A stretch of DNA of 39,679 nt from a virus (Duplodnaviria; Caudoviricetes). The translations under genes were made by a program, and so were the position numbers. This document shows positions 7,479 through 38,905 of this stretch, piece after piece (position 1 is the first letter of the stretch; each line of letters opens with the position of its first letter). The notes beneath the pieces were generated by a model. It worked only from the letters and a program-made list of their open reading frames with translations. It was not told the DNA's origin and made no database searches. The DNA lies in IMG/VR virus record IMGVR_UViG_3300032277_000022, positions 1 through 39,679 of that record; one strand, written 5' to 3'.

Positions 7479-7783
7479 TTTGAGACTGGACATCGCCGTG
7501 CTGTGGGAGCCACCCGGTGCTCGCTGGTCGCGGGGGGCGTCGGTCGTCCCCTGGTGGTAGAAGAAGGCGCGCATGCGCTACGGCAGACGCGCCAACCTCC
7601 CTGCGTGCCCGAGCCCGCTGTTGTCCCTGGCCCGCAGAAGCGGGCTGCGGTGAAAGATGCGCCCACCAGCCTCTCGGTGTGAACCCCCGTTCGGTGGGAA
7701 GCCCCGCCTCTGGATGGGCTTTCCGGTCTGGACGATCCGCCCGCCTTCCCAACGGTAAGGCCGATGTGGCGAGATTCGCCTGC

Positions 7784-7814
7784 ACGCGGGCCTGCTAATT
7801 CGGCAGGCCCGCGT
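7784..7814. promoter_or_regulatory. Perfect 12-bp inverted repeat just downstream of the LexA-like gene (terminator, attenuator or binding site)
   Basis: ACGCGGGCCTGC-taattcg-GCAGGCCCGCGT; no U-tract on the minus strand. Confidence 0.6.
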
Positions 7815-7825
7815 AAGCCGCGGCG

Positions 7826-8086
7826 TCAGGCGGACCTAGCGCCACACCACGGGCAGACTTTGACATCGCACGGCCAAACCTGCACCGACTGGCTCGAGCG
7901 GCGCGTGTAGACGTATCCCTTTTCCTGCAGCTTGCTTACGTGCTCCGAGACCGTCTTCGCGCTGCGGCGCATCCGCCGGGCGATATCGGACAGGCACGGC
8001 AGCGGGTCTTCGGTTTTGGCGCGCGACATCATCGCGCGGCGGAGGTGGCGCATCACCTGTTTCTGTTTCGGGGTGAGATCTTCCAT
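7826..8086 (-). CDS. LexA-like winged-helix DNA-binding protein lacking the peptidase domain (86 aa)
   Basis: LTPKQKQV...PCLSDIARRM..SAKTVSEHVSKLQEKGYV matches LexA N-terminal domain spacing; ends with CPWC. Confidence 0.8.
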   Translation of the reverse strand: MEDLTPKQKQVMRHLRRAMMSRAKTEDPLPCLSDIARRMRRSAKTVSEHVSKLQEKGYVYTRRSSQSVQVWPCDVKVCPWCGARSA

Positions 8087-8163: not shown

Positions 8164-8658
8164 GTGACTCAGAACCCGTTCGGAGAAGCCCTCGCCAAGC
8201 GTGACGAGGCCAACTACCACCGAGGCTTCGAGGCTGGCTACCAGGCCGGGCTCGCCGCCGCCGTCGATGCGCTGAACGACGCGCCGACCCCCACCAGCGC
8301 AGCGCCCGAGCCGAAGCCCGAGCCTGCGAAGACGACGCCCGCTCGCAGATCGAGCAGGAAGGACGCCCAGGTCGTGAAGCGCGGCTACCTGCGCATCAGC
8401 GGACGCCCCACCCGGATGGCGATCCTTGAAGCGATCGACCTGCTCGGGCCGCGCGCATCAGGACACGACGTCGAGGAGCTGTCCGAGGTGAAGTACGACA
8501 CCGTGATGGGGGCCGTCGCCGTCATGCGCGGCAAGGGATGGCTGACCGGCAAGTGGCGCGACATGACCGTCACGCCCGCCGGGATCCGACAGCTCGACGC
8601 CTGGCGCGCACGCCCCACCCAGAACAGCATCAAGCAGGAGGCCACCGATGCACTTTGA
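8164..8658 (+). CDS. Putative DNA-binding protein with C-terminal winged helix (164 aa)
   Basis: GTG start behind AGGAGG; Pro/Ala linker; RMAILEAI...GHDVEELS..KYDTVMGAVAVMRGKGWL...VTPAG wHTH pattern. Confidence 0.75.
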   Translation: MTQNPFGEALAKRDEANYHRGFEAGYQAGLAAAVDALNDAPTPTSAAPEPKPEPAKTTPARRSSRKDAQVVKRGYLRISGRPTRMAILEAIDLLGPRASGHDVEELSEVKYDTVMGAVAVMRGKGWLTGKWRDMTVTPAGIRQLDAWRARPTQNSIKQEATDAL

Positions 8659-9526
8659 GCCCACCCCCGGAGCCGTCTACGACGGACTCGACGCCGAGAC
8701 CTACCACGGCAGCTCGGGACTCAGTTCCAGCCAGCTCAAGAAGGTGTACCAGTGGTCGCCGCACCACTTCAAGCACGCCCCACCGATGGGCGACACCGAA
8801 GCCCTCAAGGATGGCAGGCTCCTGCACTCGATGGTGCTCGAGCCGGACACGGTGGACGACCTCTACGCCTTCCCTGCGGACTGGACCGAGAAGAAGCCCA
8901 ACGGGAACAAGAAGGTCGAGAACTACACCGACGAGGAGAAGGCCTACGTGCAGCGCCTGGCCGCCGCCGAGCGCAAGACCGTGATCAAGGACTCCCGGCT
9001 GCACCACCAGCGGATTGCGGACGCGATCCGCGCGCACCCGCTCTGGGAGAAGATGCAAGGGCCTGAGCCCATCGTGGAGCGCAGCTACTGGTGGGTGGAC
9101 GAGAAGACCGGCCTGCTGCTGAAGTTCCGCGCCGACTCGATGAACACGCTGACCTGGTTCGACGGGAAGCGCGCCCTCATCGTAGACCTCAAGGGTGCCC
9201 GCGACCCGCGACCGTTCGCGTTCTCGAAGCAGAGCCACGATCTCGGCTACGACTTCAGCGCCGCCATGTACTGCGAGGGCGCGCGCCAGATGCTCGGCAA
9301 GCCGGTGGACTTCTGCTGGTTCGCCTTCCAGAAGGAGGCACCCTACGGGGTGACGATCGCATTCCCCGGCGACAAGATGCGCGACCGCGGAACTAGGCTG
9401 TTCAGACACTGCGTTGACACGGTCGCCCGATGCGAGAAGTCCGGCCACTGGCCCGGCATCGGCAACGGTCGCCCCGTGATCATCGACCCCCCCGCTTACG
9501 CATCGCTGCCGAAGGAGGAAGCCTGA
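8648..9526 (+). CDS. recE: RecE/exonuclease VIII-like PD-(D/E)xK exonuclease (DUF3799 type)
   Basis: YH..GLSSSQLK, GRLLHSMVLEP, ERSYWW.D..TGLLLKFRAD, IVDLK, GY...AAMY; adjacent to RecT. Confidence 0.88.
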   Translation: MHFEPTPGAVYDGLDAETYHGSSGLSSSQLKKVYQWSPHHFKHAPPMGDTEALKDGRLLHSMVLEPDTVDDLYAFPADWTEKKPNGNKKVENYTDEEKAYVQRLAAAERKTVIKDSRLHHQRIADAIRAHPLWEKMQGPEPIVERSYWWVDEKTGLLLKFRADSMNTLTWFDGKRALIVDLKGARDPRPFAFSKQSHDLGYDFSAAMYCEGARQMLGKPVDFCWFAFQKEAPYGVTIAFPGDKMRDRGTRLFRHCVDTVARCEKSGHWPGIGNGRPVIIDPPAYASLPKEEA

Positions 9527-10518
9527 TGTCCCAGACCGACACCGCCGTATTGCCCATCGCCCACTTTCTGGGGCTCGCCCCGAACATGCGCAAGATCGAG
9601 CAGTCGCTCGGCGGCGCGCTGAAGGTCGAGCGGTTCATGCAGCTGGCGATGAACACCATCCGCCGCACGGACAAGCTGCTGGAATGCACCCCCGAGTCGG
9701 TGCTCGCCAGCCTGACGCAAGCCGCGGAGCTGCAGCTCTACCCCGGCAACAACCTCGGCCACGCCTACCTCGTCCCCTTCTGGGACAAGAAGGCGGGCGC
9801 GCAACAGTGCACCTACATCCTCGGCTACAAGGGGATGGTCGCGCTCTGCCACCGGAGCCCGAACGTGCTGAAAGTCGAGGCGCACCTGGTGTACGAGGGC
9901 GACAAGTTCTCCTGCGCGCACGGCGACGGCGAGCACCTCGTCCACGAACCCGACTACTTCGGGGACCGCGACACGATGCTCGGGGCCTACGCGCAGGCGA
10001 CCCTCGCCAACGGCACCAAGATCACGAAGGTGCTCAACATGAAGGAGCTGGAGGCCGCGAAGCGCCGCTCGAAGGCCTCGAGCTACGGCCCCTGGGTGAC
10101 CGACTTCGGGGCCATGTGCATGAAGACCGCCGTCCGACGCCTGGCCCCCTGGCTCCCCCTGGAGCCCTCGGACCAGGTGGCCGTGGCCGAGGATATGGAG
10201 AAGGAGTACGGGGACGCCGTCGAGGAGCCCCGCGAGGTGGCCGCCGAGGACGTCTCCCCCGAAGACCTCATCTCCGAGCTGGCCGGGGACGTGGTGGACA
10301 TGATCAACGAGGAGCCCGAGCAGACCCCACGCTGCACCGAGGAACAGCGGAACCGCCTCCTCGACTGGCTCCAATCAGAACATGTGGACCCGCACGCGCT
10401 GCGGAGCTACATGCGCGACTGCTTCGGGGAAGCCGAGATCGAGTCACTCTCGGAGGAGCAGGCGCAGGAGGTGTTGAACGGGGTGGAGTCGGGGGACTTC
10501 GCACCGGCAACGGAATAG
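9526..10518 (+). CDS. recT: RecT single-strand annealing protein (330 aa)
   Basis: Start at ATG 9526 (TGATG overlap, AAGGAGG RBS); LLECTPESVL, LGHAYLVPF, LGYKGMV.L, VYEGDKF, GPWVTDF.AM..KTAVRRL. Confidence 0.95.
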   Translation: MSQTDTAVLPIAHFLGLAPNMRKIEQSLGGALKVERFMQLAMNTIRRTDKLLECTPESVLASLTQAAELQLYPGNNLGHAYLVPFWDKKAGAQQCTYILGYKGMVALCHRSPNVLKVEAHLVYEGDKFSCAHGDGEHLVHEPDYFGDRDTMLGAYAQATLANGTKITKVLNMKELEAAKRRSKASSYGPWVTDFGAMCMKTAVRRLAPWLPLEPSDQVAVAEDMEKEYGDAVEEPREVAAEDVSPEDLISELAGDVVDMINEEPEQTPRCTEEQRNRLLDWLQSEHVDPHALRSYMRDCFGEAEIESLSEEQAQEVLNGVESGDFAPATE

Positions 10519-10541
10519 CCTAGTATTCAATCCTCCTCCTG

Positions 10542-10587
10542 GGTGGGGGGTCGGGCGCAGTCATGCCGCTCGGCCCTCCGCCTTTTT
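10542..10587 (+). terminator. Rho-independent terminator of the recE-recT operon
   Basis: 16-bp stem with G-U pairs (GGTGGGGGGTCGGGCG / CGCTCGGCCCTCCGCC) followed by TTTTT, at the convergence with the giant gene. Confidence 0.8.
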
Positions 10588-13500
10588 ACATGGCCCCCGT
10601 GAGCTTCCGGTAGCGCTTGGCGAACGCCATCTGCAGCCGGTCGATCTCCGTGTCGATCTTCCGGCCCGCCGCCGGGTCATCCAGAGCCTTCTTGCGGCTC
10701 CGCAGCTGGCGCAGGCGGGCCTCGGTCTTCTTGAGGACCGGAGCCAGGGTCAGGAGCGGCCTGTCGCTCACGCGCAGCTCCTTCACGCGCTGGCCGTCGC
10801 GCCGCTCGCGGGCGTCGTCCAGGCGGTCCACAGCGCGCCTCACGCGAGACCGCTGCTGGTAGTACCGCTCCCGGTCGAAGCGGTCGTCGTGCTCGCCCAC
10901 CAGGCGGCGCACCAGGGGCCAGTCGAACAGCTTCGTCTCGCGGCCCTCCTGGTTCGCGTCGAACAGCCGCTTGATCCGGTTCGCCTGGCGGCCAGGGCCA
11001 CCCGTCAGGAACTCGAAGGCGTGCTCGAGCGTCTCCGGGGAGACGTCCACCTTGCCCGGCGTCACCGCGTCCCCGCCGGTGATCTCGTTCATCCAGGTCG
11101 CCAGGTGCTTCCACTGAGCACCCACCGAGCCCCAGTACCGGCTGGAGTCCGGGGGCGGCGGGTCGCCGTAGGCCGTGGGCATGACCGGGGCACCCGTGAA
11201 CGTCTTGTTTTCGCCCACCTGCGCGATCGGGTCGAGGAGCGTCGGGGTCACCGTCTGCAGCAGCGTGGCCTCGGAGCCCAGCGGGTAGAAGGACTCCCAC
11301 GCCACCGCGAGCAGATCCTCCGCCGCGTCCACCTTGCTCTTTCCGCCCACCATCACCGACGCAGCCTGCTGGCCGATGCCGTGGAAGATGTTGTACCCGT
11401 AGGGAAGCGGGATCTGGATGCGGTCGCCGGACCCGGAGGGGTCCATGATGATCAGGTTGCGCGACTTCACCCACTCGGGGATCTTGTCGTAGAACGGCAC
11501 GCCGTCCTCGTCGTCGCCACCGTTCGCGCGGTTCCACAGGTCCAGCATGAACGTGGCCGCCACGATCCCCGCCGCCGTCCGCTGCACGCCGGGGTGCTTC
11601 ATCGCGGACAGCAGGCGCATCGTGCCCTGCACGCTCGCGTTGTAGAACATGTACAGCGCGTTGAACAACTGGTCCTCGCCCCGCCGGTTGAAGTTCACCG
11701 TCAGGTTCTTCGACAGGTTCGCAGCCTCGATCGGGGTCGCGCCGTTGTCCCGAGCAGCGGCGTAGGCGGCCAGGCGCACGTTGTTCTCCACCGCCTGGTT
11801 CGCGTGCTCGACCCAGTCCTTCGCCTGCATCAGGACGCGCTCCGCCTGCTGCAGCGGGGAGTTGCCCAGCCTCCGGGCCTCGCGCTGGATCGCGCGCACC
11901 TGGCCCTCGAAGTCCGGCATCGTCCAGAAGCCCACCGTGCCCCCGTTCTCCTCCATCTCCTTGAACCAGTCGTCCCACTCGTTCTCGCGCGCCTTGCCGC
12001 GGAGGCCGCGCCACACCGCGCGACCGGGCTGGCCGAAGATCGCGTCCTTCATCACGCGGGCAGCCATCGCCCCCGACTCCTCGCCGCTCAGGTTGATCCC
12101 GGCGGTCTGCAGGTCGCGGAAGAAGTTCGAGAGCATGAAGCCCGGATCGAGGCTGGTGTTCAGCGAGGCGATCATGCGCATGACCGAACCCGCCGCGCGC
12201 AGCGCCGCGGGCGTGCTCTCCTGGCCCAGGTTCCGCAGCGAGGCCAGGAGCCTCGGGTCGGTGACCCGGATGTAGTGCTGGCGGCCCTTCACCTTCAGGC
12301 TGAACTCGTCCTCCGCGGCGCGGGGCTCCGAGGGCAGCAGCTCACCGTTCGTGTCCTCCTCCGTCGCCCCCTCATCGCGGACGCGGAACGACTTCAGGAG
12401 GTCCGCGTGCTCCTTGATCAGCGCCAGGAAGCTCTGTCCCACCCGGTTCTTCTCCGACCGGATGATCGCCTTCTGCGCGTCGAGTAGCGCCCAGGTCAGG
12501 GGCGAGTGCGCCAGCGTGCCGCGCCCCTTCGCCTCCTTCGCCTCCGCGCCGCTCACGTTCATGCCCGAGCCGGTGCCGTACCCAGCGCCCTCGAACAGCG
12601 TCCGCAGCGGCACGTAGTGCTGGTACTGCGCGTCCCACGCGGCGCGGGTCTTCTCGCTGATCAGCCCGCCCTCGACCATCGTGTCGCGGGTCTCCGCCGT
12701 CATCGCGCGCACCAGCTCCGCCGCCTGCTTGTACTGCTCGTACCCCTTGCGCTTCCGCACGCGGTCGAGGATCTGTCGCCGCATCTGCGCGGGCATACCC
12801 GAGCCGCCGACCTCGGCGTCCTCGAACCGCTCGGGGAACTTCTCAAGCAGGTGCTCGTCGCGCTCCTTCGCGTGCAGCGCGTACAGGTACTCTGCCAGTT
12901 GCTCGTCGGTGATGTCGCCATCCGACATCAGCTTCGCCAGGCGGTCGAGGTAGCGCTTCTTCCACTTCCGCAGCCGCGAGGTGGTCTTCCCGCTGAAGCG
13001 GTCCATCGCCAGGTACAGCGAGTCGTCGGGGGACAGCACCCCGCCAGCCGCGCGCAGCGCCTCCTCGAGCCTGCGCACGCGCAGATCCTTGTCCTGGAAC
13101 CGGCGGCGCAGCGCGTCCACCAGCCCCTCGCCGCCCATGTCGAAGCCGCGCAGCTCCATGTGCCGCTGGGCCGGGGGCACCGAGAACAGCGGTTGCCCCT
13201 TCTCCAGAACGCTGGCCTTCATCTCCTCCGTAATCGGCATCGAGTGGACCGCCTTGAATCGCTCGATTTCGCCATTCTCGTACTCCTTCAGCTCGGCCTC
13301 CAGTCTCTCGATCTCCTCCCCGGCGAGCTTTGCTTCCATCTCCGCCTGCTCGATTTTCTCCTGGTGCGCGGCCTTGCGCCTCTCGACCACCCCGGGCGCG
13401 TACTCCTCGATCGGGGCGTTGAACATCGCGGGCCTAGTTGGGTGCGTCAGGGGGAGTCGCTTGAGATCCTTCACTCTCTCAAGAGCCACTCTGCGGTCCC

Positions 13501-16500
13501 TCTCAAACCCACGGATATCCCGCTGCAGGGAGTCGGGAGCGGACTCGGGGCCAGCACCGATCTCCTTCGACCGCACCGCGCTGCCGAACTTCTTGCCGAG
13601 CTTCTTGGCCGTGTCCACCAGACGCTTGTCGTAGAAGGCCCGCATGCCCTTCCCGCCAACGGCGATGTCGTCGCCCTTGACCATGCCGTCTTCCGCCGCG
13701 GCGATCTTCTCGGCCATCTCCCTGCCGAGGTAGTCCGCGATCGTCTTCGAGGGGTCGTCCATCTGCTTGCCCTCCACGTCGAATCGCTCGTGCCAGGTGA
13801 CCAGGCCGTCCTTCATCCCGACGACCGTGACCATTCCCTCCTGGGAGACCCCACTAGACGACTTGGCGAGCATCTCCTTGGTGATGCGGTGCGCCATCAT
13901 GGCGCTGGTCGCCTCGACGGTCATCACGCGCTCGCCGTTGACCATCACATCGAAGTCGCGGAGGCCAGAGCGCCCGGCCTCGTCCTGGAACGACGAGGCC
14001 CCACCCTCCTCCAGCCGGTACGGCTTGTTCACGTAGCTCGTGTCCCAGGTGATCTTGTCCACGACGCGCCGCGTGGCGCCCTGGTAGCGCGCGATCTGGA
14101 TCACGCCGGTGGACCACGACAGCTCGTCGTGCCCGCCCTCCGCCGCCATGCGGATCATCCGACGCATCACCATCGTGGGCCAGGAGGTCTTGAACGGGGC
14201 GTCCGGCACGCCGCTGGTCTCCGCCTGAACGAGATCGCTGTGGGCGTCAGACGCCTTCTTTCCCGCCGCCTTGGCCTTGACGGTGAGAGCCTTCAGCTTC
14301 TCGCCAAGGATCGCCTCCTCCGCCTCGTTCAGAGTGTCGTTCTCGACCTTCCACTTCACCTCGTCCCGCGCCGCCTGCGCCGCCTCGTAGGCGGACCAGG
14401 TGCTGCGCTCCGCCTGCTTCATGCGGTCCAGCGCGGGGCCGGGCATCAGTCGGTAGCCACGATCGCGCCCGGACTGGTGCCAGTCGGATTGGATCTCATC
14501 GATGTACAGCGCCCTCTTGCCGTCTGCGGTCAGCCGGTCGCTGACGCGAGCGTGGGCCACGATGTCCTCCTCCGACCAGTGGCCGCCGCGGAACCTCGGC
14601 TTGTGCACGCCGAAGTCGCCGTCGTTCCAGATCGAGACCTCCGTGGCGAACCATTCGAGCCACGCGGCCTTGTCCTCGTAGCTGCTCGAACCGCCGTACA
14701 GGTCTTCGGCCAGCTTGAGCACGGCATCGTGCACTTCCTCGGTGGCGATCACGCCATAAGGGCGTCCGTCGAACCAGTTCTGGACCCTGTGCAGAAGCAG
14801 GCGCTGGTCCTCCTTGCTCGGGAGGGGGTGCTTGATTCGGATCCCCCCATCGGCAAGCGCCTCGGTCGGGATGGCAATCGTGGCGCTATCTTCGTGGTTC
14901 TCGGTCGCCCCCCAGGCCATGCGCTGCAGGTCATCCATAGAGGGACGGGCCGGTTTCGTATCCTCGTCCGGGAGCTGCAGCAGAATCTCCCGGTAGTTGC
15001 TCCCCCCTGCGAGGGAGAGGGTCTCGTCCCCGTACCGGACCCGCCTGTTCGGGCCGGTGGGGACGTCCGCCTGGTCCGGTAGAAGCTCGAGGATCGTGTC
15101 CTCGGACTGAGCGTTCGCCCAGGCCAGCGTCTTGTCCTCGCCCGCGCGAATGGCCTCCTCCTGCGTCTCGTAGAAGATGGGCTCGGGCATCCACGCCAGA
15201 TCCAGTTCGTAGCCCTTGCCCATCGTGTACGAGATGCTGCCGGGCACGTCCGACTTGAACTCTTCGTAGAGCGCTTCGCGCATCGCGACCAGCCTCTCGT
15301 CAACCCCGGAGTCCGGCAGATCCACGCCGTCGACCTCGAGCTGCGTGGCGAGCTGCGCGTCCGACAACCCGCCGTAGAAGTTCAACATGTAGTCACGAAG
15401 GTCGTCCTCCGCGTCCTCCTCGTCTTCGAAGTACTGCTGGGCCGTTTCCCCGTTCCAATCCCATGTCCACCCTTCAGGCTCGTCGTGCGTGACGTCCTGA
15501 GAGTTGTTCATCATGTGATCCACCAGGGCGTTGATCGCTCCCCAGCGATCTTGCGCCACGCGTGCTGCGCTGATCGGCTGGTCGCCAGAGACCAGCTCGT
15601 TGATGATCAGGCGCGAGTTCTGGATGAACTCCAGAAGCTCCTCGCGGTCGATCTTCTCGCCCTTCGGCTTCGCGGCGAGCCAAGGCTCCAGGCCCATCCA
15701 GTCCAGCTCCTCCTGCTTCGCCCCGCCCTTGATGAGCCGCGGGATCACCTGCGCCGGTAGGAACCGCTTCTGCTCCACGGAGTGCAGGGCGCTCTCGACC
15801 GTCGAGTAGAACCCGAGCTGGTCCACGATCGGGACGCTGTACAGGGTGCCCTCGTCCCACTCACGAAGGGCGCGCTCCTCCGCGCTCTCCGTGTCGTCGC
15901 GCCGCTTGCGCGCGACCGGAACCTTGGCGGCCTTCCGCTCGAGCTGAACGGCCCGGGTCTCCTCACCAGCCTGGCGGGCAAGGTCAGCCCTCGCGCGCAG
16001 GCGGTTCGATCGCTGACGCAGACGCTTGGTCTGCGCCCCGGTCAGCGCGGACTCTGCTTCTCGCTCTCGTCGGTCGGGACGTTGAGCACGTCCATCATCC
16101 GCTTGCGATCCCCCTCCAGCCCGTCGCGTTCTTTCCCGACGAACCCGGCCCAGAACGTCTCGCTCTGCGCCTGCTTCTGCAGGTCGTCCGGCAGGTTGTC
16201 CCACATCGCGCCCGCGCTCATCGCGAGCAGCGCCACTTCTGCTTCGTCCATGAATGACTCCCAGCACCTCGGGCTGCTTCTTCGCGCCACGGTTCCAGGT
16301 GCTGACGGTCATGTTACCTCCGAAGGCGTCCCGAAGTGCGTCCTTCACGCCCTGGGTGCCCTTGTTGTGGTAGATGACCGTGTTCCCGGGCAGCATCTGC
16401 GCACCGACCTCGGCATTCAGCTGCAGGAAGTCGGCCCCCGCGAAGGCGTAGTCCTTCCCACCCGCGCTGTAGGTGCCCGCCGTGGTCTCGTGGTACGGCG

Positions 16501-19396
16501 GGTCCAGCAGCACCAGGCCGCGCCGACCGCCCTGCGTCAGCGCCACGGCCTCGGGCGAGACCGCGTCCACGCCCACGACGGTGACCTTGATCCCCTTCGC
16601 CTTCGCCGCGTCGAACTGCGCCTTGATCCGGTCGCCGTCCTCCTTCGCCGTGCGCAGGATCTTCTCCCAGGTGGACACGCGCTGGCTGAACATCACGTCG
16701 CGCACCGCGAGCACCGCGGTCTTCGAGCGCGCCGAGAGCCCGCGGACCTGCTCCACGTACCGCGCGAACCGTTCGTGCTTCTTCGACTCCCGCTCGCCCG
16801 CGGCGACGTCCAGGGCCAGGGCAGCCGGGGAGCTGCTCTTGCCCCTGGTCAGGGGCTCCAGCTCCGCCGCCAGCTGGCGCAGGACCGGGTCCGTCTCCCA
16901 GGCCTCCATGAACGAGCCGCCCTCGCGGCCCGCCCGCTCGAGACGCGCCCGGCGCTCCGGGTCGATCTCGTTGATCACCACCTCCTCGACCTCCGCCGCA
17001 GCACCCGAGGTTGCGACCGACAGGCCATAGGTGCCGCCCCCGGCGTAGAAGTCGAAGATCACCTTCACCGCGGACGGACCCCCGAGGATCGCCGCCGCCA
17101 GGCGCTTCGCGTTCTTGAACAGGAACTCCCGCTTATTCCCCATGTACCGGGTCTGCTGACGGGCCGCCGCCTGGAGCGGCTGTACGAGCGGCTGTGTGCT
17201 CGTCCGCGGCACGGCCTCCGCACGCACCGCCTCCGGGGCCGGGCGCGCTCCTGGCGCAGCCGAGGCGGGCGTGGCGGCCTCCTGGGCCTCCGCGGGCTCG
17301 CCGCGCTCCATATCGGCCTGGAACTCCGCCTCCCAGGGAAGCCGCTTCCGAGGCCCCTTGTCGTCGTCGCCACCGGACCGCACCTGGCCCGTTGCCGCGG
17401 TCGGCGGGAGACCAGCGGCCACGCCCAGCGCCTCCGCCAGCGCCATCCCCATCTCGGCAGCCTCGGGAGACCAGACCCATTCGGCGCTCCCAAACCCTTG
17501 TGCCATAAGGCTTTGCTGCGCCTTCTCCAGCCGCTTCTCCTGCGTCTTGCGCACCTCGACGCCGACCAGCTTCAGGGCGTCCGAGGCCAGGTCGCGGAGC
17601 TGCTGCAGCCCCGTGCGACCGCCGTTCTTGATCAGGTTCGCGACCGCCTGGCCGCCCTCAGGCGTCAGCGACAGCCACACCCACGGGGCCAGGGACTCCG
17701 CCTTCACCGCGCGCCCCTCCTTCCCCAGCGTCTCGGCGTCCTCCAGGGCCGGGAGCCCCGCGGCCTCCAGCCGCTCGTTGTACCAGCCCGCGAACTCCTG
17801 CACCTGCGGGCCGTGCTTCTCGAGCACCGTGTCCAGCCACTCCGACACCCCGGGGTGCGTGCGCTCCAGGTTGTGCCGCAGCTCATGGGTCAGCACCTCC
17901 GCGGGGTGCTGCTTCGAATTCACGTCCCACAGCACCACGCCGGGCCGCGGGCTCGCGCCCTGCCGCTTCTTGAGCGGCTCCCCGTCCTTCGAGCGGACCG
18001 GGATGATCTCGATGCCAGAGCCTTCGAAGGCCTTCCGGTAGACCTCGACGCGCTCCTGCTCAGGAGACAGCGGCTCCCTTTCCGTGGGCTGTTCGGGGGT
18101 GCCCCCCTCTCCCCCATCCGTGTTGTCTTTGTCGGAAGTGGCCCCAGTGGCCCCATCGGCCTCTGGCATCTCGACCTCCTCGATCGGGACGCCCACCTCC
18201 TCTTCGAAGCCTCGGATCAGCTCCTCGCGGGCCTCGGGAGTCACCTCCTCCGCAGCCTGGCCGGGGCGACCGACCGTGGCGAAGCCCTGCTTCGGCACCG
18301 CGGCGTTCGCGCCAGGCCCCGCCGCAGCCACCAGCCCCGCGCGGCCAGCCGCCGGGACGCTGAACGCGATCAGCTCCGCCGCCTGCGACTGCAGGTCAGG
18401 CCACGCGTTCGCCAGGATGCCGCCCTCCTCCGCGCCGGTCGCGCCCTTCAGCGCGCCGCCGAAGCGCTCCTCGAGATACTCCTCGATCGGGCCGTCCCAG
18501 CCGCCAGCCTTCCCCAGCTTCGTCAGGGCGTCCACCAGCGGGCCAGGCGCGCGCTCGCGGAAGTGGCTGAAGACCTCCTTCTGCATCGCGTGCAGGTACG
18601 CCACCGGGGGGATCCGCTTCGCCCCATCCATCAGCGCGCTGCCCGACCGCTCGGAGATCAGCTCGATGTACTCGGACAGGATCGCGTCGGGCAGGGCGTC
18701 CATGAAGTCGCCCGTCGTCCCCTGCATCACGATCCCCACCTGCCCCGACTCGTTCTCGGTCAGCTCCATGCCGGGCAGCGTCCGACGCCACGCGCCAGCC
18801 TGCACCCGAGAGCCACCTAGCACCTGGCCGATCGCCTCGTTCGCCGCCAGCTGACCAGCCGACAGGACCGAGCCGTCCACCGCGCGCCGAACCAGCGAGC
18901 GCTCCGCCTTCTTCGTCGCCGCCTTCTCCACGGCCTCGCGCACGGCCTTGCCCATCAGCTTCCGGCCAGCGACCGAGCCCGCCTTCGTGGCGATCGCGCC
19001 GCCCGTCAGGAACTCCCCGATGAACGCGGGCATCTCCGCCAGGATCGACACGACGTCGTACCCCAGCGACGTGTTCCGCTGCGCGTCCTCCAGCCACTCG
19101 GCCATCACGCGGCCCTCCTCCTCCGTGGCCTCGCCCGACTCCATGCGGGTAGAGATATCGTGCAGGCTCGCGTACTTCAGCGTGTCCGAGACCGCGCTCT
19201 TGTAGGGCGCGAGCTTCCACGGGTCCGCCTTCAGCTCCTCCCACGCGTCCCCGGCGGTCTTCTTCGTCGTGTCCACCAGCGCGCGCACGCGCGGGCTCCA
19301 CTCCTCTTCGGGGGCCACGGGGGTCTCGGTGACGGGCTCTGCAGGCCCGCGCCCCAGCAGGGCCAGGGTGCGGGGGGAGTACTGCTTGTCCTGCAT
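10586..19396 (-). CDS. Giant polyvalent internal-virion (ejection) protein, 2936 aa: zincin HExxH, Dam/D12-class DNA adenine methyltransferase domain, EIQSDWHQ domain, C-terminal LPD38-like domain
   Basis: HELRH at aa ~504; YMGNK (~751), FDFYAGGG, VINEID, LLDPPY (~965); GFYS, GGSNYREILL, IDEIQSDWHQ (~1634), PDAPFK, GMRAFYD; KIPEWVKSRNLI..IPLPYGY..ENKTFTGAPV. Last gene of the virion module after two ejection-type genes. Confidence 0.85.
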   Translation of the reverse strand: MQDKQYSPRTLALLGRGPAEPVTETPVAPEEEWSPRVRALVDTTKKTAGDAWEELKADPWKLAPYKSAVSDTLKYASLHDISTRMESGEATEEEGRVMAEWLEDAQRNTSLGYDVVSILAEMPAFIGEFLTGGAIATKAGSVAGRKLMGKAVREAVEKAATKKAERSLVRRAVDGSVLSAGQLAANEAIGQVLGGSRVQAGAWRRTLPGMELTENESGQVGIVMQGTTGDFMDALPDAILSEYIELISERSGSALMDGAKRIPPVAYLHAMQKEVFSHFRERAPGPLVDALTKLGKAGGWDGPIEEYLEERFGGALKGATGAEEGGILANAWPDLQSQAAELIAFSVPAAGRAGLVAAAGPGANAAVPKQGFATVGRPGQAAEEVTPEAREELIRGFEEEVGVPIEEVEMPEADGATGATSDKDNTDGGEGGTPEQPTEREPLSPEQERVEVYRKAFEGSGIEIIPVRSKDGEPLKKRQGASPRPGVVLWDVNSKQHPAEVLTHELRHNLERTHPGVSEWLDTVLEKHGPQVQEFAGWYNERLEAAGLPALEDAETLGKEGRAVKAESLAPWVWLSLTPEGGQAVANLIKNGGRTGLQQLRDLASDALKLVGVEVRKTQEKRLEKAQQSLMAQGFGSAEWVWSPEAAEMGMALAEALGVAAGLPPTAATGQVRSGGDDDKGPRKRLPWEAEFQADMERGEPAEAQEAATPASAAPGARPAPEAVRAEAVPRTSTQPLVQPLQAAARQQTRYMGNKREFLFKNAKRLAAAILGGPSAVKVIFDFYAGGGTYGLSVATSGAAAEVEEVVINEIDPERRARLERAGREGGSFMEAWETDPVLRQLAAELEPLTRGKSSSPAALALDVAAGERESKKHERFARYVEQVRGLSARSKTAVLAVRDVMFSQRVSTWEKILRTAKEDGDRIKAQFDAAKAKGIKVTVVGVDAVSPEAVALTQGGRRGLVLLDPPYHETTAGTYSAGGKDYAFAGADFLQLNAEVGAQMLPGNTVIYHNKGTQGVKDALRDAFGGNMTVSTWNRGAKKQPEVLGVIHGRSRSGAARDERGRDVGQPAGRPAEAGAERDVLGRVRRERTRRAGGGSQADDGRAQRPDRREREAESALTGAQTKRLRQRSNRLRARADLARQAGEETRAVQLERKAAKVPVARKRRDDTESAEERALREWDEGTLYSVPIVDQLGFYSTVESALHSVEQKRFLPAQVIPRLIKGGAKQEELDWMGLEPWLAAKPKGEKIDREELLEFIQNSRLIINELVSGDQPISAARVAQDRWGAINALVDHMMNNSQDVTHDEPEGWTWDWNGETAQQYFEDEEDAEDDLRDYMLNFYGGLSDAQLATQLEVDGVDLPDSGVDERLVAMREALYEEFKSDVPGSISYTMGKGYELDLAWMPEPIFYETQEEAIRAGEDKTLAWANAQSEDTILELLPDQADVPTGPNRRVRYGDETLSLAGGSNYREILLQLPDEDTKPARPSMDDLQRMAWGATENHEDSATIAIPTEALADGGIRIKHPLPSKEDQRLLLHRVQNWFDGRPYGVIATEEVHDAVLKLAEDLYGGSSSYEDKAAWLEWFATEVSIWNDGDFGVHKPRFRGGHWSEEDIVAHARVSDRLTADGKRALYIDEIQSDWHQSGRDRGYRLMPGPALDRMKQAERSTWSAYEAAQAARDEVKWKVENDTLNEAEEAILGEKLKALTVKAKAAGKKASDAHSDLVQAETSGVPDAPFKTSWPTMVMRRMIRMAAEGGHDELSWSTGVIQIARYQGATRRVVDKITWDTSYVNKPYRLEEGGASSFQDEAGRSGLRDFDVMVNGERVMTVEATSAMMAHRITKEMLAKSSSGVSQEGMVTVVGMKDGLVTWHERFDVEGKQMDDPSKTIADYLGREMAEKIAAAEDGMVKGDDIAVGGKGMRAFYDKRLVDTAKKLGKKFGSAVRSKEIGAGPESAPDSLQRDIRGFERDRRVALERVKDLKRLPLTHPTRPAMFNAPIEEYAPGVVERRKAAHQEKIEQAEMEAKLAGEEIERLEAELKEYENGEIERFKAVHSMPITEEMKASVLEKGQPLFSVPPAQRHMELRGFDMGGEGLVDALRRRFQDKDLRVRRLEEALRAAGGVLSPDDSLYLAMDRFSGKTTSRLRKWKKRYLDRLAKLMSDGDITDEQLAEYLYALHAKERDEHLLEKFPERFEDAEVGGSGMPAQMRRQILDRVRKRKGYEQYKQAAELVRAMTAETRDTMVEGGLISEKTRAAWDAQYQHYVPLRTLFEGAGYGTGSGMNVSGAEAKEAKGRGTLAHSPLTWALLDAQKAIIRSEKNRVGQSFLALIKEHADLLKSFRVRDEGATEEDTNGELLPSEPRAAEDEFSLKVKGRQHYIRVTDPRLLASLRNLGQESTPAALRAAGSVMRMIASLNTSLDPGFMLSNFFRDLQTAGINLSGEESGAMAARVMKDAIFGQPGRAVWRGLRGKARENEWDDWFKEMEENGGTVGFWTMPDFEGQVRAIQREARRLGNSPLQQAERVLMQAKDWVEHANQAVENNVRLAAYAAARDNGATPIEAANLSKNLTVNFNRRGEDQLFNALYMFYNASVQGTMRLLSAMKHPGVQRTAAGIVAATFMLDLWNRANGGDDEDGVPFYDKIPEWVKSRNLIIMDPSGSGDRIQIPLPYGYNIFHGIGQQAASVMVGGKSKVDAAEDLLAVAWESFYPLGSEATLLQTVTPTLLDPIAQVGENKTFTGAPVMPTAYGDPPPPDSSRYWGSVGAQWKHLATWMNEITGGDAVTPGKVDVSPETLEHAFEFLTGGPGRQANRIKRLFDANQEGRETKLFDWPLVRRLVGEHDDRFDRERYYQQRSRVRRAVDRLDDARERRDGQRVKELRVSDRPLLTLAPVLKKTEARLRQLRSRKKALDDPAAGRKIDTEIDRLQMAFAKRYRKLTGAM
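16042..16251 (-). CDS. Putative nested gene (69 aa, acidic, helical) in an alternative frame inside the giant gene
   Basis: ATG at 16251 preceded by GGGAG-tcattc; 62 of 69 codons end in G/C by my count; the giant's own frame here becomes Arg/Gly low complexity with many A/T-ending codons. Confidence 0.65.
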   Translation of the reverse strand: MDEAEVALLAMSAGAMWDNLPDDLQKQAQSETFWAGFVGKERDGLEGDRKRMMDVLNVPTDESEKQSPR

Positions 19397-36762: not shown

Positions 36763-36998
36763 CAGAATCTCTTTCCCAGGCGGAAGTCTCGGGGGTAGTG
36801 GTGCTCGGCGCGGTAGTACGCCGCGCGAATGCGCAGTTGCAGGTGCTCCGTGATCGGCTCGTCGCGCAGGTGGAACACGTGCTTGCGGTACTCGTCCATG
36901 CGGAACTCCTCGCCCCAGCCGGGCTGCATCGAGGCTTCCACGAACTCGGTAAACTTGTCCATGTCGTCGTCCCAGTCCTTCTCGAAGCGGCTCTTCAT
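36762..36998 (-). CDS. Hypothetical protein (78 aa)
   Basis: TGATG coupling at both ends; GC3-rich codons. Confidence 0.7.
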   Translation of the reverse strand: MKSRFEKDWDDDMDKFTEFVEASMQPGWGEEFRMDEYRKHVFHLRDEPITEHLQLRIRAAYYRAEHHYPRDFRLGKRF

Positions 36999-38905
36999 CA
37001 GGGCACCACCACGGGTTGTCCGAAGAAGGCCTGGTGCAGGGCGAGCAGCTCGATGCGCGCCGCGTCGTCGGCGCTCGAACCGCCAGAGACCACGTTCGTC
37101 GTCTCCTTCGGGTCCGTCGCCAGGTTGAACAGCTGGTAGCTCTGCGCCGTCTCGCCGGTCTCGAAGATTCGCCGCAGCTTGTAGCCCTCCCCGTCCGTGC
37201 TCGACTCCGTGCCCACGATGCTGAAGTCGTACAGCGTGACCTCCTGGGCCACGTCATCCACGTACCCAGGCTCGAAGACGCAATGGGTCGTGAACTGCTT
37301 GCTCGGCGCGGCCAGGTTCCAGAACGACTCGTAGAAGCTCTCGCCGTCGATCTTCGCCAGCTCCGTCGCGCCCAGGGTCGCGCGCCAGCCAGGGGCCACG
37401 ATGTCCAAGATGGTCGGGTAGAAGTCGCAGGCGTCCACGTACCGATCGCAGTCCTGCCCCCGCACATCGCTGGACAGCGGCCCGCCCCAGACGATCAGCG
37501 GGGTGAGGATGCCCTCGTCCTTCGTCGTGCCCTTCGCGTCGGAGTACACGTGGTACAGCTCGCTGACGGTCGCGCTCACCTCGCCGGTCGTCGTCGGCGG
37601 GATGCAGTTGTAGTACGGCGTGCCGGGGCCGCTTGACAGGTCCGTGAACTCAGGCGTCTCAAGCGGGGTCGCCGCGCGTTGCAGCTCGCCGTTGTCCGAG
37701 TAGTGCATCCACAGCGTCCGCGCGTACTCCTGCGGGTGGTTCACCTTCACGTAGTCGTTCAGCATCCCGGCCAGCGTGTCCACCACCTCAAGCGCGGCCC
37801 GCGCGCGCCGCCACTCGACGTGCACCTGGCCGCTCGGGCCGTAGACGCCCGTGGTCGGATCGTCGTCCGGCTGCCCGGTCCGGTCGAACCCGCCGTCCGT
37901 CGTCTCGCCGTTGTTCCCCGCCGCGTCCGGGATCAGCTCGGCTTGCGTGTAGCAGGAGAACAGCGCCACCTCCACGCCGTCCGGGTTCGCCGGGTCCACC
38001 ATGAGCTGCACCGGCTCCATCGCGGGCAGCAGGTCGTGAATCAGGTTCATCTCCCAGTCGATGATCCACGGCTTGCCCGCCGCCACGCACTCGTCGATGT
38101 AGTACGTGGCCTTCTTGTACATCAGCGCCGGGCTGTACACGTCGCCCTCGGGCAGCGGCAGCGCGCCAGGCGGCAGGTCGCCCTCGAAGTCGCCCGCGTA
38201 GTACACCTCGTGCACGTCCGCGTCCGTGTAGCTGTACGGGAAGTTGAAGAAGCCGTAGAGCGGCTGGCCGTTGCCCAGGCGCAGGCATTCGTGTGCCACA
38301 TCAAAGCCAGCCTCGTCCACGATGGCGCGCGGGTTGAGCCTGGTGCTCAGGATGCCCTCGCCCGTGACGACATCCGGCTGGTACTCGTACAGGTGGTACT
38401 TGCCGAACATCCCGGTGCCGTGGGGCGCTCCAGAGGCGCGGACCAGGCCCGGCCAGGGGTTCTGCTCGGCCACGATCCCGATGTGGAAGGGGTCGTTGCT
38501 GTCCGGCGTGTTCGCGATCACGTCTCCGACGCCCGTGCCGTCCGGGTGCAGCGTGGTCCGGTGCCCCTGCCTGCCGGTGAAGATCGCGGCCCTGGTCGGC
38601 GCGCACCTGGCGTCCACCCTTGCCTGCGTGAACCGGATGCCCTCCGTGATGAACCCGGCCAGCCTCGGCATCGAGGCGTGGGGGTACGTCCCCGGCCAGC
38701 GGTTGAAGTCGTCGTAGGACGGCATCTGGCTGCGCCCCGTGTCGTCCATCATCCACAGCACCAGGTTCAGCGGGGGCTGCGCACGGATCTGCTCGCGCCC
38801 ACCCACCTGGACGGGCTGGCGCTCCGGGTTGCCTCCTACGCTGACGGGTAGCTTCAAGGGGATGCGTCCTCGGGCGGTGGGGTCACTGGGGCCGGGAAGG
38901 GTCAC
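36998..38905 (-). CDS. Formylglycine-dependent (S1 family) sulfatase, 635 aa
   Basis: NLVLWMMDDTG, C-A-P-T-R-AAIFTGR (38591-38605), GMFGKYHL, LIH, YSDNG, KGT..DEGI.TPLIVWG, DFYPTI, IDGES, YKL, LFNLATDPKETTN. Confidence 0.93.
   Translation of the reverse strand: MTLPGPSDPTARGRIPLKLPVSVGGNPERQPVQVGGREQIRAQPPLNLVLWMMDDTGRSQMPSYDDFNRWPGTYPHASMPRLAGFITEGIRFTQARVDARCAPTRAAIFTGRQGHRTTLHPDGTGVGDVIANTPDSNDPFHIGIVAEQNPWPGLVRASGAPHGTGMFGKYHLYEYQPDVVTGEGILSTRLNPRAIVDEAGFDVAHECLRLGNGQPLYGFFNFPYSYTDADVHEVYYAGDFEGDLPPGALPLPEGDVYSPALMYKKATYYIDECVAAGKPWIIDWEMNLIHDLLPAMEPVQLMVDPANPDGVEVALFSCYTQAELIPDAAGNNGETTDGGFDRTGQPDDDPTTGVYGPSGQVHVEWRRARAALEVVDTLAGMLNDYVKVNHPQEYARTLWMHYSDNGELQRAATPLETPEFTDLSSGPGTPYYNCIPPTTTGEVSATVSELYHVYSDAKGTTKDEGILTPLIVWGGPLSSDVRGQDCDRYVDACDFYPTILDIVAPGWRATLGATELAKIDGESFYESFWNLAAPSKQFTTHCVFEPGYVDDVAQEVTLYDFSIVGTESSTDGEGYKLRRIFETGETAQSYQLFNLATDPKETTNVVSGGSSADDAARIELLALHQAFFGQPVVVP

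What the first reader, a model, noticed from the sequence alone, without database searches (positions are those of the whole stretch)
16042..16251. Hidden gene nested out-of-frame directly behind the methyltransferase domain of the giant virion protein
Seen: right after the MTase domain the giant's frame turns into HGRSRSGAARDERGRDVGQPAGRPAEAG..., with codons rare elsewhere here (CGA, AGA, GGA). The shifted frame has its own RBS (GGGAG), ATG 16251 and TGA 16042, and 62/69 G/C-ending codons. It encodes MDEAEVALLAMSAGAMWDNLPDDLQKQAQSETFWAGFVGKERDGLEGDRKRMMDVLNVPTDESEKQSPR. Both frames stay open, so the DNA looks dual-coding. Inference: an enzyme-plus-partner cassette (MTase with a small acidic inhibitor, chaperone or DNA mimic) was captured in-frame into the ejection protein. 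The partner could keep the enzyme silent during assembly and be left behind on injection. Alternatively a programmed frameshift could give a shorter MTase-ended isoform.
Basis: partly seen in the sequence, partly recalled or inferred. Interest (0 to 1): 0.88.

Follow-up and report, generated by a model that had tools for sequence, protein, structure and literature searches.

The report
Hidden partner gene behind phage methylase
A 69-codon gene sits one base out of frame inside a giant phage virion-protein gene, starting exactly where a Dam-like DNA-methylase domain ends; the same arrangement recurs in many phages, and the small protein likely acts as the enzyme's built-in off-switch, which some bacteria appear to have captured on its own.

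Summary
Confirmed, and not an assembly error. ORF 16251-16042 (-) has a strong SD, 62/69 G/C-ending codons and is the only frame switch in the 2936-aa LPD38 polyvalent protein. Its ATG lies in the last strand of a Dam-fold methyltransferase (Z 15.9 to E. coli Dam). Close homologues (protein only) keep the +1 ATG-compatible dipeptide in 12 of 13. For a sister subfamily, DNA shows a nested +1 gene at this spot in 18 of 19 loci. These genes have SD enrichment, pN<pS in their own frame, and 0 host-frame stops against about 34 expected. Enzyme plus nested gene moves as one module between unrelated giants. Free-standing copies of the sister family occur in five bacterial genomes where the enzyme was not found, one beside a type I R-M locus. 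Best reading (0.5): a cognate inhibitor, an effector-immunity pair whose immunity gene became nested when the effector became internal. Weak points: the window's peptide is not detectably homologous to the sister family, and no activity was tested. DNA mimicry and frameshifting are not supported. This scan noted nested genes in giants before on other DNA (at least 42 genomes); my look-ups found no note on this cassette or its orphans.

The parts
10586..19396 (-). Giant large-polyvalent protein gene (2936 aa), likely an ejection/internal virion protein
   Evidence: ORF; LPD38 E 7e-44; C-terminal 816 aa 33% identical to Stx-phage giants; the phi24B LPD38 giant gp47 was found in virions by proteomics (10.64898/2026.04.10.717836, passages)
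16247..17155 (-). Dam-like (alpha-class) amino-methyltransferase domain, giant aa ~748-1050
   Evidence: AF2 model pTM 0.81; VIA-align Z 15.9, rmsd 3.5, 225 aligned to E. coli Dam 9-270; Foldseek top hits M.CbeI, DpnM, Dam
17033..17056 (-). Motif I (SAM binding) FDFYAGGG
   Evidence: sequence; conserved in alignments A1 and A5
16493..16504 (-). Motif IV DPPY (catalytic)
   Evidence: sequence; DPPY or DPAY in all 13 close homologues
16258..16262 (-). Shine-Dalgarno GGGAG of the nested gene, written inside the enzyme's last beta-strand (L-G-V codons)
   Evidence: dG -6.8
16042..16251 (-). Nested +1-frame gene, 69 aa, acidic (net -7); read by the giant as a Gly/Arg/Ala-rich linker (aa 1049-1118)
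   Evidence: called as a gene on an 855-bp ENA contig that may be the same sample
16150..16155 (-). Phe-Trp codons of the nested protein (V-L-G in the giant's frame), the conserved core in close homologues
   Evidence: [VIL][LV][GDA] at linker position 30-33 in 11 of 13 homologues
10910..11491 (-). LPD38 domain of the giant
   Evidence: Pfam PF18857, aa 2636-2829

Best explanation
The 69-codon ORF is a conserved nested gene with its own SD, start and stop, and its product is likely a cognate inhibitor of the Dam-like methyltransferase domain just upstream. Shown: the two-frame anatomy, the Dam fold with intact motifs, the strict positional coupling, selection on both frames in the sister subfamily, movement of enzyme plus nested gene as one module, and free-standing copies of the sister family in bacteria. 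Inferred history: a two-gene operon whose partner ATG overlapped the enzyme's last codons was fused into ejection proteins, so the giant reads through the partner gene as a floppy spacer. Inferred function: the injected domain would methylate incoming phage DNA, probably with low specificity, against restriction. During late expression ribosomes would also initiate at the internal SD, making the small protein from the same mRNA, and it would keep the enzyme quiet in the producing cell. Bacteria that capture the small gene alone could blunt the phage's methylase.
For: Position: the model aligns to Dam through residue 305, the ATG codon. Close homologues keep [H/D/Y]-G there in 12 of 13; H, D and Y share only the A-T bases of a +1 ATG, background 0.6-1.6% per site. 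DNA of the sister subfamily: nested ORF of 56-93 aa in 18 of 19 loci with sequence past the enzyme. SD median -6.35 vs -2.4, p 1e-6. pN<pS in the nested frame in 7 of 7 non-independent pairs; pN>pS in the host frame in 6 of 7. 0 host-frame stops against 33.7 expected over 19 ORFs. Module ends: similarity between otherwise unrelated giants stops at the nested stop codon (window aa 1116-1118 vs P0002 and P0005; L013/L017 and L010/L026). Stand-alone enzymes P0015 and P0059 end a few residues after the ATG motif. In 18 host genes only two other credible nested ORFs turned up. Orphans: five genomes carry the sister family un-nested (E 9e-14 to 3e-7) with no enzyme match. The G253 copy keeps the cassette's SD-ATG junction, has two tandem domains and lies next to HsdM/HsdS. 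A small ORF right behind an effector is the immunity layout described in PMC5576092 (passages). The partner evolves faster than the enzyme (35-50% vs 53-74% identity).
Against: The window's peptide is not significantly similar to the sister family (hhalign E 0.19; 320 of 1000 and 239 of 994 shuffles score as high), so the orphan and dN/dS evidence carries over by position only. No DNA of the window's own subfamily was found. Inferred +1 similarity to the window peptide was clear in only 3 of 7 close homologues. L022, P0013 and P0052 keep the enzyme without a recognisable nested gene. A DNA methylase is not a classic toxin: the paper on non-specific Dam-like prophage methylases has 0 hits for 'toxic' or 'lethal'. 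The orphan genomes are incomplete, and two orphans lie in mobile islands. Base and sequence specificity are unknown; the top Foldseek hit M.CbeI is, from recall, an N4-cytosine enzyme.
Confidence: 0.5

Rival explanations
1. The small protein is an activating or specificity subunit, or a chaperone, of the methyltransferase, co-packaged with the giant, like the beta chain of M.EcoHK31I that is encoded in an alternate frame.
For: The strict coupling and module boundaries fit any obligate partner. The target-recognition region of the model is all helical, with no strand between residues 65 and 191, so Dam's recognition hairpin (recalled) seems absent. Precedent: PMC2836561 (passages).
Against: The domain aligns to the whole of Dam with all motifs present. 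An activator is useless without the enzyme, yet orphans persist with the old host frame broken in 4 of 5. The enzyme occurs without the partner in L022 and P0013.
Confidence: 0.2
2. The small protein acts on a host target of its own, for example as an anti-restriction or anti-defence protein, and travels with the methylase only because both serve the same purpose.
For: Orphans without the enzyme, one beside a type I R-M locus and one beside a WYL gene. The window avoids many 6-mer palindromes, showing restriction pressure.
Against: Among the phage loci fetched, the family occurs only directly behind this enzyme. A late-operon position suits an anti-defence role poorly unless the protein is packaged. 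The charge is too weak for a DNA mimic.
Confidence: 0.17
3. A programmed +1 frameshift yields a shorter giant ending in enzyme plus the 69 residues, and the ATG is incidental.
For: The +1 frame is open for 19 codons before the ATG in the window.
Against: In 8 of 18 loci a +1 stop lies 1-3 codons before the ATG; SD and ATG are conserved; orphans are independent genes.
Confidence: 0.05
4. The ORF is a decaying relic of a captured neighbour gene, no longer translated in this phage, or a compensating double-indel artefact.
For: The peptide has no detected relatives by sequence and a poor single-sequence model (pTM 0.24).
Against: Near-perfect codon bias, an intact SD, ATG and stop, a conserved ATG/FW signature across enzymes only 36-50% identical to the window's or each other, and no indels in three runs.
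Confidence: 0.08

Closest known systems
Polymorphic toxin-immunity cassettes, e.g. phage MuF toxins (PMC5576092, passages read)
   Same: A virion-associated multidomain protein with a swappable enzyme module and a small, fast-evolving ORF immediately downstream; orphan copies of the small ORF (orphan immunity is recalled knowledge).
   Different: The enzyme is internal, so the small gene is fully nested in the +1 frame. The enzyme is a DNA methylase, not a known toxin. Neutralisation is untested.
ShiLan out-of-frame HNH insertion in actinophage methylase genes (PMC11855218, abstract read)
   Same: A hidden gene with its own start and stop inside a phage methylase-containing ORF that reads through without stops.
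   Different: ShiLan is a homing endonuclease inserted in the methylase. Here the nested product is small and helical, follows the domain, and moves with it.
M.EcoHK31I alpha/beta (PMC2836561, passages read)
   Same: A methyltransferase partner encoded in an alternate frame of the same gene.
   Different: That is a C5 methylase whose beta chain supplies motif IX. The domain here matches all of Dam, and the nested gene lies after it.
DarB methylase-helicase dyad of polyvalent proteins (PMC5512222, passages read)
   Same: An injected methylase in a giant virion protein, proposed to protect incoming DNA.
   Different: Here the fold is Dam/DpnM-like, with no helicase found by Pfam. That paper has 0 hits for 'overlapping' and 'linker'.
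Hia5/Hin1523/Nme1821 non-specific Dam-related prophage methylases (PMC3299994, passages read)
   Same: Dam-related phage enzymes with DPPY, FxGxG and a divergent recognition region; an analogue for broad anti-restriction methylation.
   Different: They are stand-alone genes replacing mom. No sequence comparison with them was run.

Membership tests
Dam/DpnM-type alpha-class amino-methyltransferase | Motif order I (FxGxG) - target-recognition region - IV (DPPY) | tested here: met
Dam/DpnM-type alpha-class amino-methyltransferase | Dam fold over the whole domain | tested here: met
   Z 15.9, rmsd 3.5, 225 aligned; next family at Z 11.9
Pfam MethyltransfD12 (PF02086) | Score above the gathering cut-off of 22 bits | tested here: not met
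   no hit for the window domain; 13.7-13.9 bits in four homologues
Dam/DpnM-type alpha-class amino-methyltransferase | SAM-dependent DNA methylation, base and site | not testable with these tools
   needs an assay
Large polyvalent protein | LPD domain plus enzyme modules in one giant ORF of a virion operon | tested here: met
   LPD38, terminase and adaptor genes upstream
Nested overlapping gene | Own SD, start, stop and codon bias inside an open host frame | tested here: met
Nested overlapping gene | Selection on both frames | tested here: met
   DNA-level for the sister subfamily; protein-level signature only for the window's own subfamily
Nested overlapping gene | Translation shown | not testable with these tools
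   needs Ribo-seq or proteomics
Effector-immunity pair | Small ORF directly behind the effector, moving with it as a cassette | tested here: met
Effector-immunity pair | Orphan copies of the small gene without the effector | tested here: inconclusive
   five for the sister family in incomplete genomes; none found for the window's peptide
Effector-immunity pair | Effector at the C-terminus (polymorphic-toxin layout) | tested here: not met
   internal here; near-terminal in L013, L016, L031, P0008 and P0009
Effector-immunity pair | Harmful activity neutralised by the partner | not testable with these tools
   needs co-expression and assay
DNA-mimic inhibitor | Consistently high negative charge | tested here: not met
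   net +1 to -9 over 18 proteins
ShiLan-type hidden homing endonuclease | HNH domain in the hidden frame | tested here: not met
   69 aa, no Pfam hit; sister family all helical
TnpV-like nested gene | Match to PF14198 | tested here: inconclusive
   no hit, but the DarB-adjacent 107-aa ORFs also miss it

The most novel reading that the evidence does not exclude
Phages inject a promiscuous DNA methylase as a module of a giant ejection protein and carry its antidote hidden in the +1 frame of the spacer behind it. Bacteria and their mobile islands have captured that antidote gene, in one case doubling it and placing it next to a type I restriction system, to switch off the phage's methylation shield. 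That would be a first protein inhibitor family for Dam-fold methylases, a counter-counter-defence, and a general rule that spacers of polyvalent proteins hide the immunity genes of internal effectors.
Probability: 0.3. Interest if true: 0.92.

Novelty: new variant of a known kind. Interest (0 to 1): 0.74.

Why it matters
Gene callers drop such genes, so a conserved protein family is missing from databases. The coupling gives a direct test of why polyvalent-protein spacers hide genes: a 305-aa enzyme and a 69-aa peptide can be assayed in a laboratory strain. A natural inhibitor or regulator of a Dam-fold methylase would be new biochemistry and a possible tool. Orphan copies beside restriction loci would add a layer to the phage-restriction arms race.

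Tried and rejected
Complex prediction of enzyme with peptide was not available, so there is no structural test of binding. No RNA holder was listed. No DNA of the window's own subfamily: viral contigs, metagenomes (only the window's own contig), genomes, isolate phages. The 69-aa peptide found only itself among 5.8 billion proteins, with no Pfam, PHROG or Atlas hit. The sister nested family has no meaningful Pfam, PHROG, PDB-sequence, BFVD or PDB-fold match (best Z 5.6, rmsd 4.0, 75 aligned); this neither shows nor excludes a new fold. The second-base substitution test on P0002/P0007 was inconclusive (0.51 vs 0.44 and 0.38). The enzyme-partner similarity correlation is weak (rho 0.25, p 0.037, n 16) and expected from shared ancestry, so it is not used. 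The pattern scan gave 31 loci: 11 repeats of earlier loci, 19 without DPPY upstream, 1 new (L031). Rows dropped from the 18-of-19 count: L018 and L027 (contig ends before the site) and L028 (an ordinary stand-alone Dam-like gene); L014 and L019 are 99% identical. The protein-only survey parsed 47 of 63 proteins, 36 of them ATG-compatible. G413 (E 8.5e-4) is too weak to count as an orphan. One search repeated the genome sample. GATC is not depleted in the window (600 vs 619). Vibrio phage D80 and ct8d5349 giants showed no nested ORF by my score.

Full report
Context. The window is a 39.7-kb phage record, 96% complete by CheckV, held by microbial-mat runs. The minus-strand operon has a terminase and an SU10-type adaptor and ends in a 2936-aa ORF (19396-10586) with LPD38. 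Its C-terminal 816 aa match 361 isolate-phage records, with Stx-phage giants at 33%. The LPD38 giant of phi24B was detected in virions and proposed as an ejection protein (10.64898/2026.04.10.717836, passages). The virion role here is inferred from that.

Observation. The +1 ORF 16251-16042 is as described. GC3 is 62/69 against 29/71 in the giant's frame; codon log-odds are +0.55 against -0.68; only 3 of 145 windows of the giant prefer another frame, all here. Its SD scores -6.8, like the giant's own -7.0. Contigs of three runs show no indel over the ORF (X3 covers only 15929-16214; X1 and X2 may be the source).

The upstream domain. An AF2 model (pTM 0.81) aligns to E. coli Dam residues 9-270 at Z 15.9, then to M.CbeI, DpnM and T4 Dam. 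Motifs I and IV are intact. It does not reach the Pfam D12 cut-off. The fold ends at the nested ATG. The recognition region is predicted all helical, which may mean low specificity (inference; analogue Hia5 family, PMC3299994, passages).

Close homologues, protein only. Thirteen proteins form the window's subfamily; among the eight compared pairwise, identity is 36-82%. Twelve end the domain in H-G, D-G or Y-G, residues that share only the bases of a +1 ATG. Eleven have [VIL][LV][GDA] 30-33 residues later, which reads as an aromatic or hydrophobic residue followed by Trp in +1. P0013 lacks both. The eight linkers examined are Gly/Arg-rich and poor in residues with A/T-starting codons. Inferred +1 similarity to the window peptide beat all 60 shuffles in 3 of 7. 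Similarity between the window giant and P0002 or P0005 ends at aa 1118 and 1116, the nested stop. No DNA for this subfamily was found.

Sister subfamily, DNA. The profile search found 60 proteins, mostly giants of 1000-5600 aa. Two stand-alone enzymes stop a few residues after the ATG motif, as an overlapping gene pair would. Twenty-two loci were obtained; three were dropped (two truncated, one ordinary Dam-like gene). Eighteen of 19 carry a 56-93-aa +1 ORF starting at the enzyme's end; L022 does not. They form one helical family with L-T-D-E-E and W-P-x-E-L motifs (model pLDDT 83). L031, not in the profile, scores E 4e-9. SD energies beat other +1 ATGs (median -6.35 vs -2.4, p 1e-6); two starts have a weak SD and may be misplaced. 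In 7 non-independent pairs pN<pS in the nested frame, and pN>pS in the host frame in 6 of 7; the alignments were made on the nested frame. Random synonymous recoding predicts 33.7 host-frame stops over 19 ORFs and none is seen, so both frames are kept. A comparable ATG-led ORF occurs in 0-19% of other 30-codon windows. Unrelated giants share just the enzyme plus nested gene. The window peptide is not significantly similar to this family; only a W-x-x-L-P-x-x-L motif is suggestive. Either they diverged beyond detection or two partners occupy the same slot.

Orphans. The sister-family profile was run on two overlapping genome samples (401 of the phylum of G001, 381 of the class of G253). Besides known cassettes it hit G253, G361, G349, G262 and G624 (E 9e-14 to 3e-7). 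None of these is nested behind the enzyme, and no enzyme was found in those incomplete genomes. The old host frame is broken in 4 of 5. The G253 copy keeps the cassette's SD-ATG junction and has two tandem domains. It lies between an integrase island and HsdM, HsdS, a reverse transcriptase and DUF1828/1829, followed by a frame I read from memory as HsdR. G349's copy is fused to RsfS behind a nadD-like gene; G361's lies near a WYL gene.

Mechanism. Shown: anatomy, coupling, selection, modularity, orphans. Inferred: internal initiation on the late mRNA, and the partner's role. The layout is that of effector-immunity cassettes (PMC5576092, passages) made internal by further fusion; near-terminal forms (L013, L016, L031, P0008, P0009) look like intermediates. 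An inhibitor explains why the small gene survives without the enzyme; an activator does not. An independent anti-defence protein would also explain orphans. I put inhibitor at 0.5, accessory subunit at 0.2, independent role at 0.17, relic or artefact at 0.08 and frameshift at 0.05.

Known and new. Out-of-frame genes in methylase ORFs are in print: ShiLan HNH (PMC11855218, abstract) and M.EcoHK31I beta (PMC2836561, passages). The polyvalent-protein paper PMC5512222 has 0 hits for 'overlapping' or 'linker'. Searches (listings only) showed no paper on nested genes in polyvalent proteins or on this cassette; the library lacks most subscription papers, and I read no supplements. This scan's notes report the general phenomenon in at least 42 genomes and a TnpV-like gene before DarB methylases. 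I saw such ORFs myself in 3 of 5 annotated giants. Look-ups returned nothing for this cassette or its orphans. Verdict: a real nested gene, a new variant of a known kind, interest 0.74.

Noticed in passing
window 1-39679: Strong avoidance of many 6-mer palindromes (CGGCCG 0 vs 36, GGGCCC 0 vs 26, GAGCTC 0 vs 23, TGGCCA 0 vs 22, GCCGGC 1 vs 28), while GGATCC and GATC are not avoided.
   Followed up: partly
L003:5762-5923 and 7628-7948; L004:5916-6092 and 7569-7889; L005:12531-12635: Unannotated +1 ORFs inside the DarB-like giants of isolate phages BcepMigl and Heva (two strong ones each, with SD and ATG; the 107-aa one precedes the DarB methylase) and in CF418P1.
   Followed up: partly
L068:128-682 (-), G349:C2: RsfS with a C-terminal fusion of the nested-family domain, behind a nadD-like gene.
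   Followed up: partly
L066:3230-17001, G253:C24: Integrase island with a small-terminase-like gene (recalled), the two-domain orphan, and a type I R-M locus containing a reverse transcriptase and DUF1828/1829.
   Followed up: partly
L011:14898-15227; L021:7617-7925: Second nested +1 ORFs (109 and 102 aa) elsewhere in those giants.
   Followed up: no
L022:1-1100: Methylase host frame has one TAA about 30 codons after the domain and then runs on; no nested gene, possibly a split or decaying giant.
   Followed up: partly
P0056: A second copy of the YxDEAWW methylase motif appears after the linker, suggesting a duplication or chimera.
   Followed up: no
window 36998-38905 (-); 8648-10523 (+): A sulfatase-domain ORF, and an exonuclease VIII plus RecT pair on the opposite strand.
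   Followed up: no
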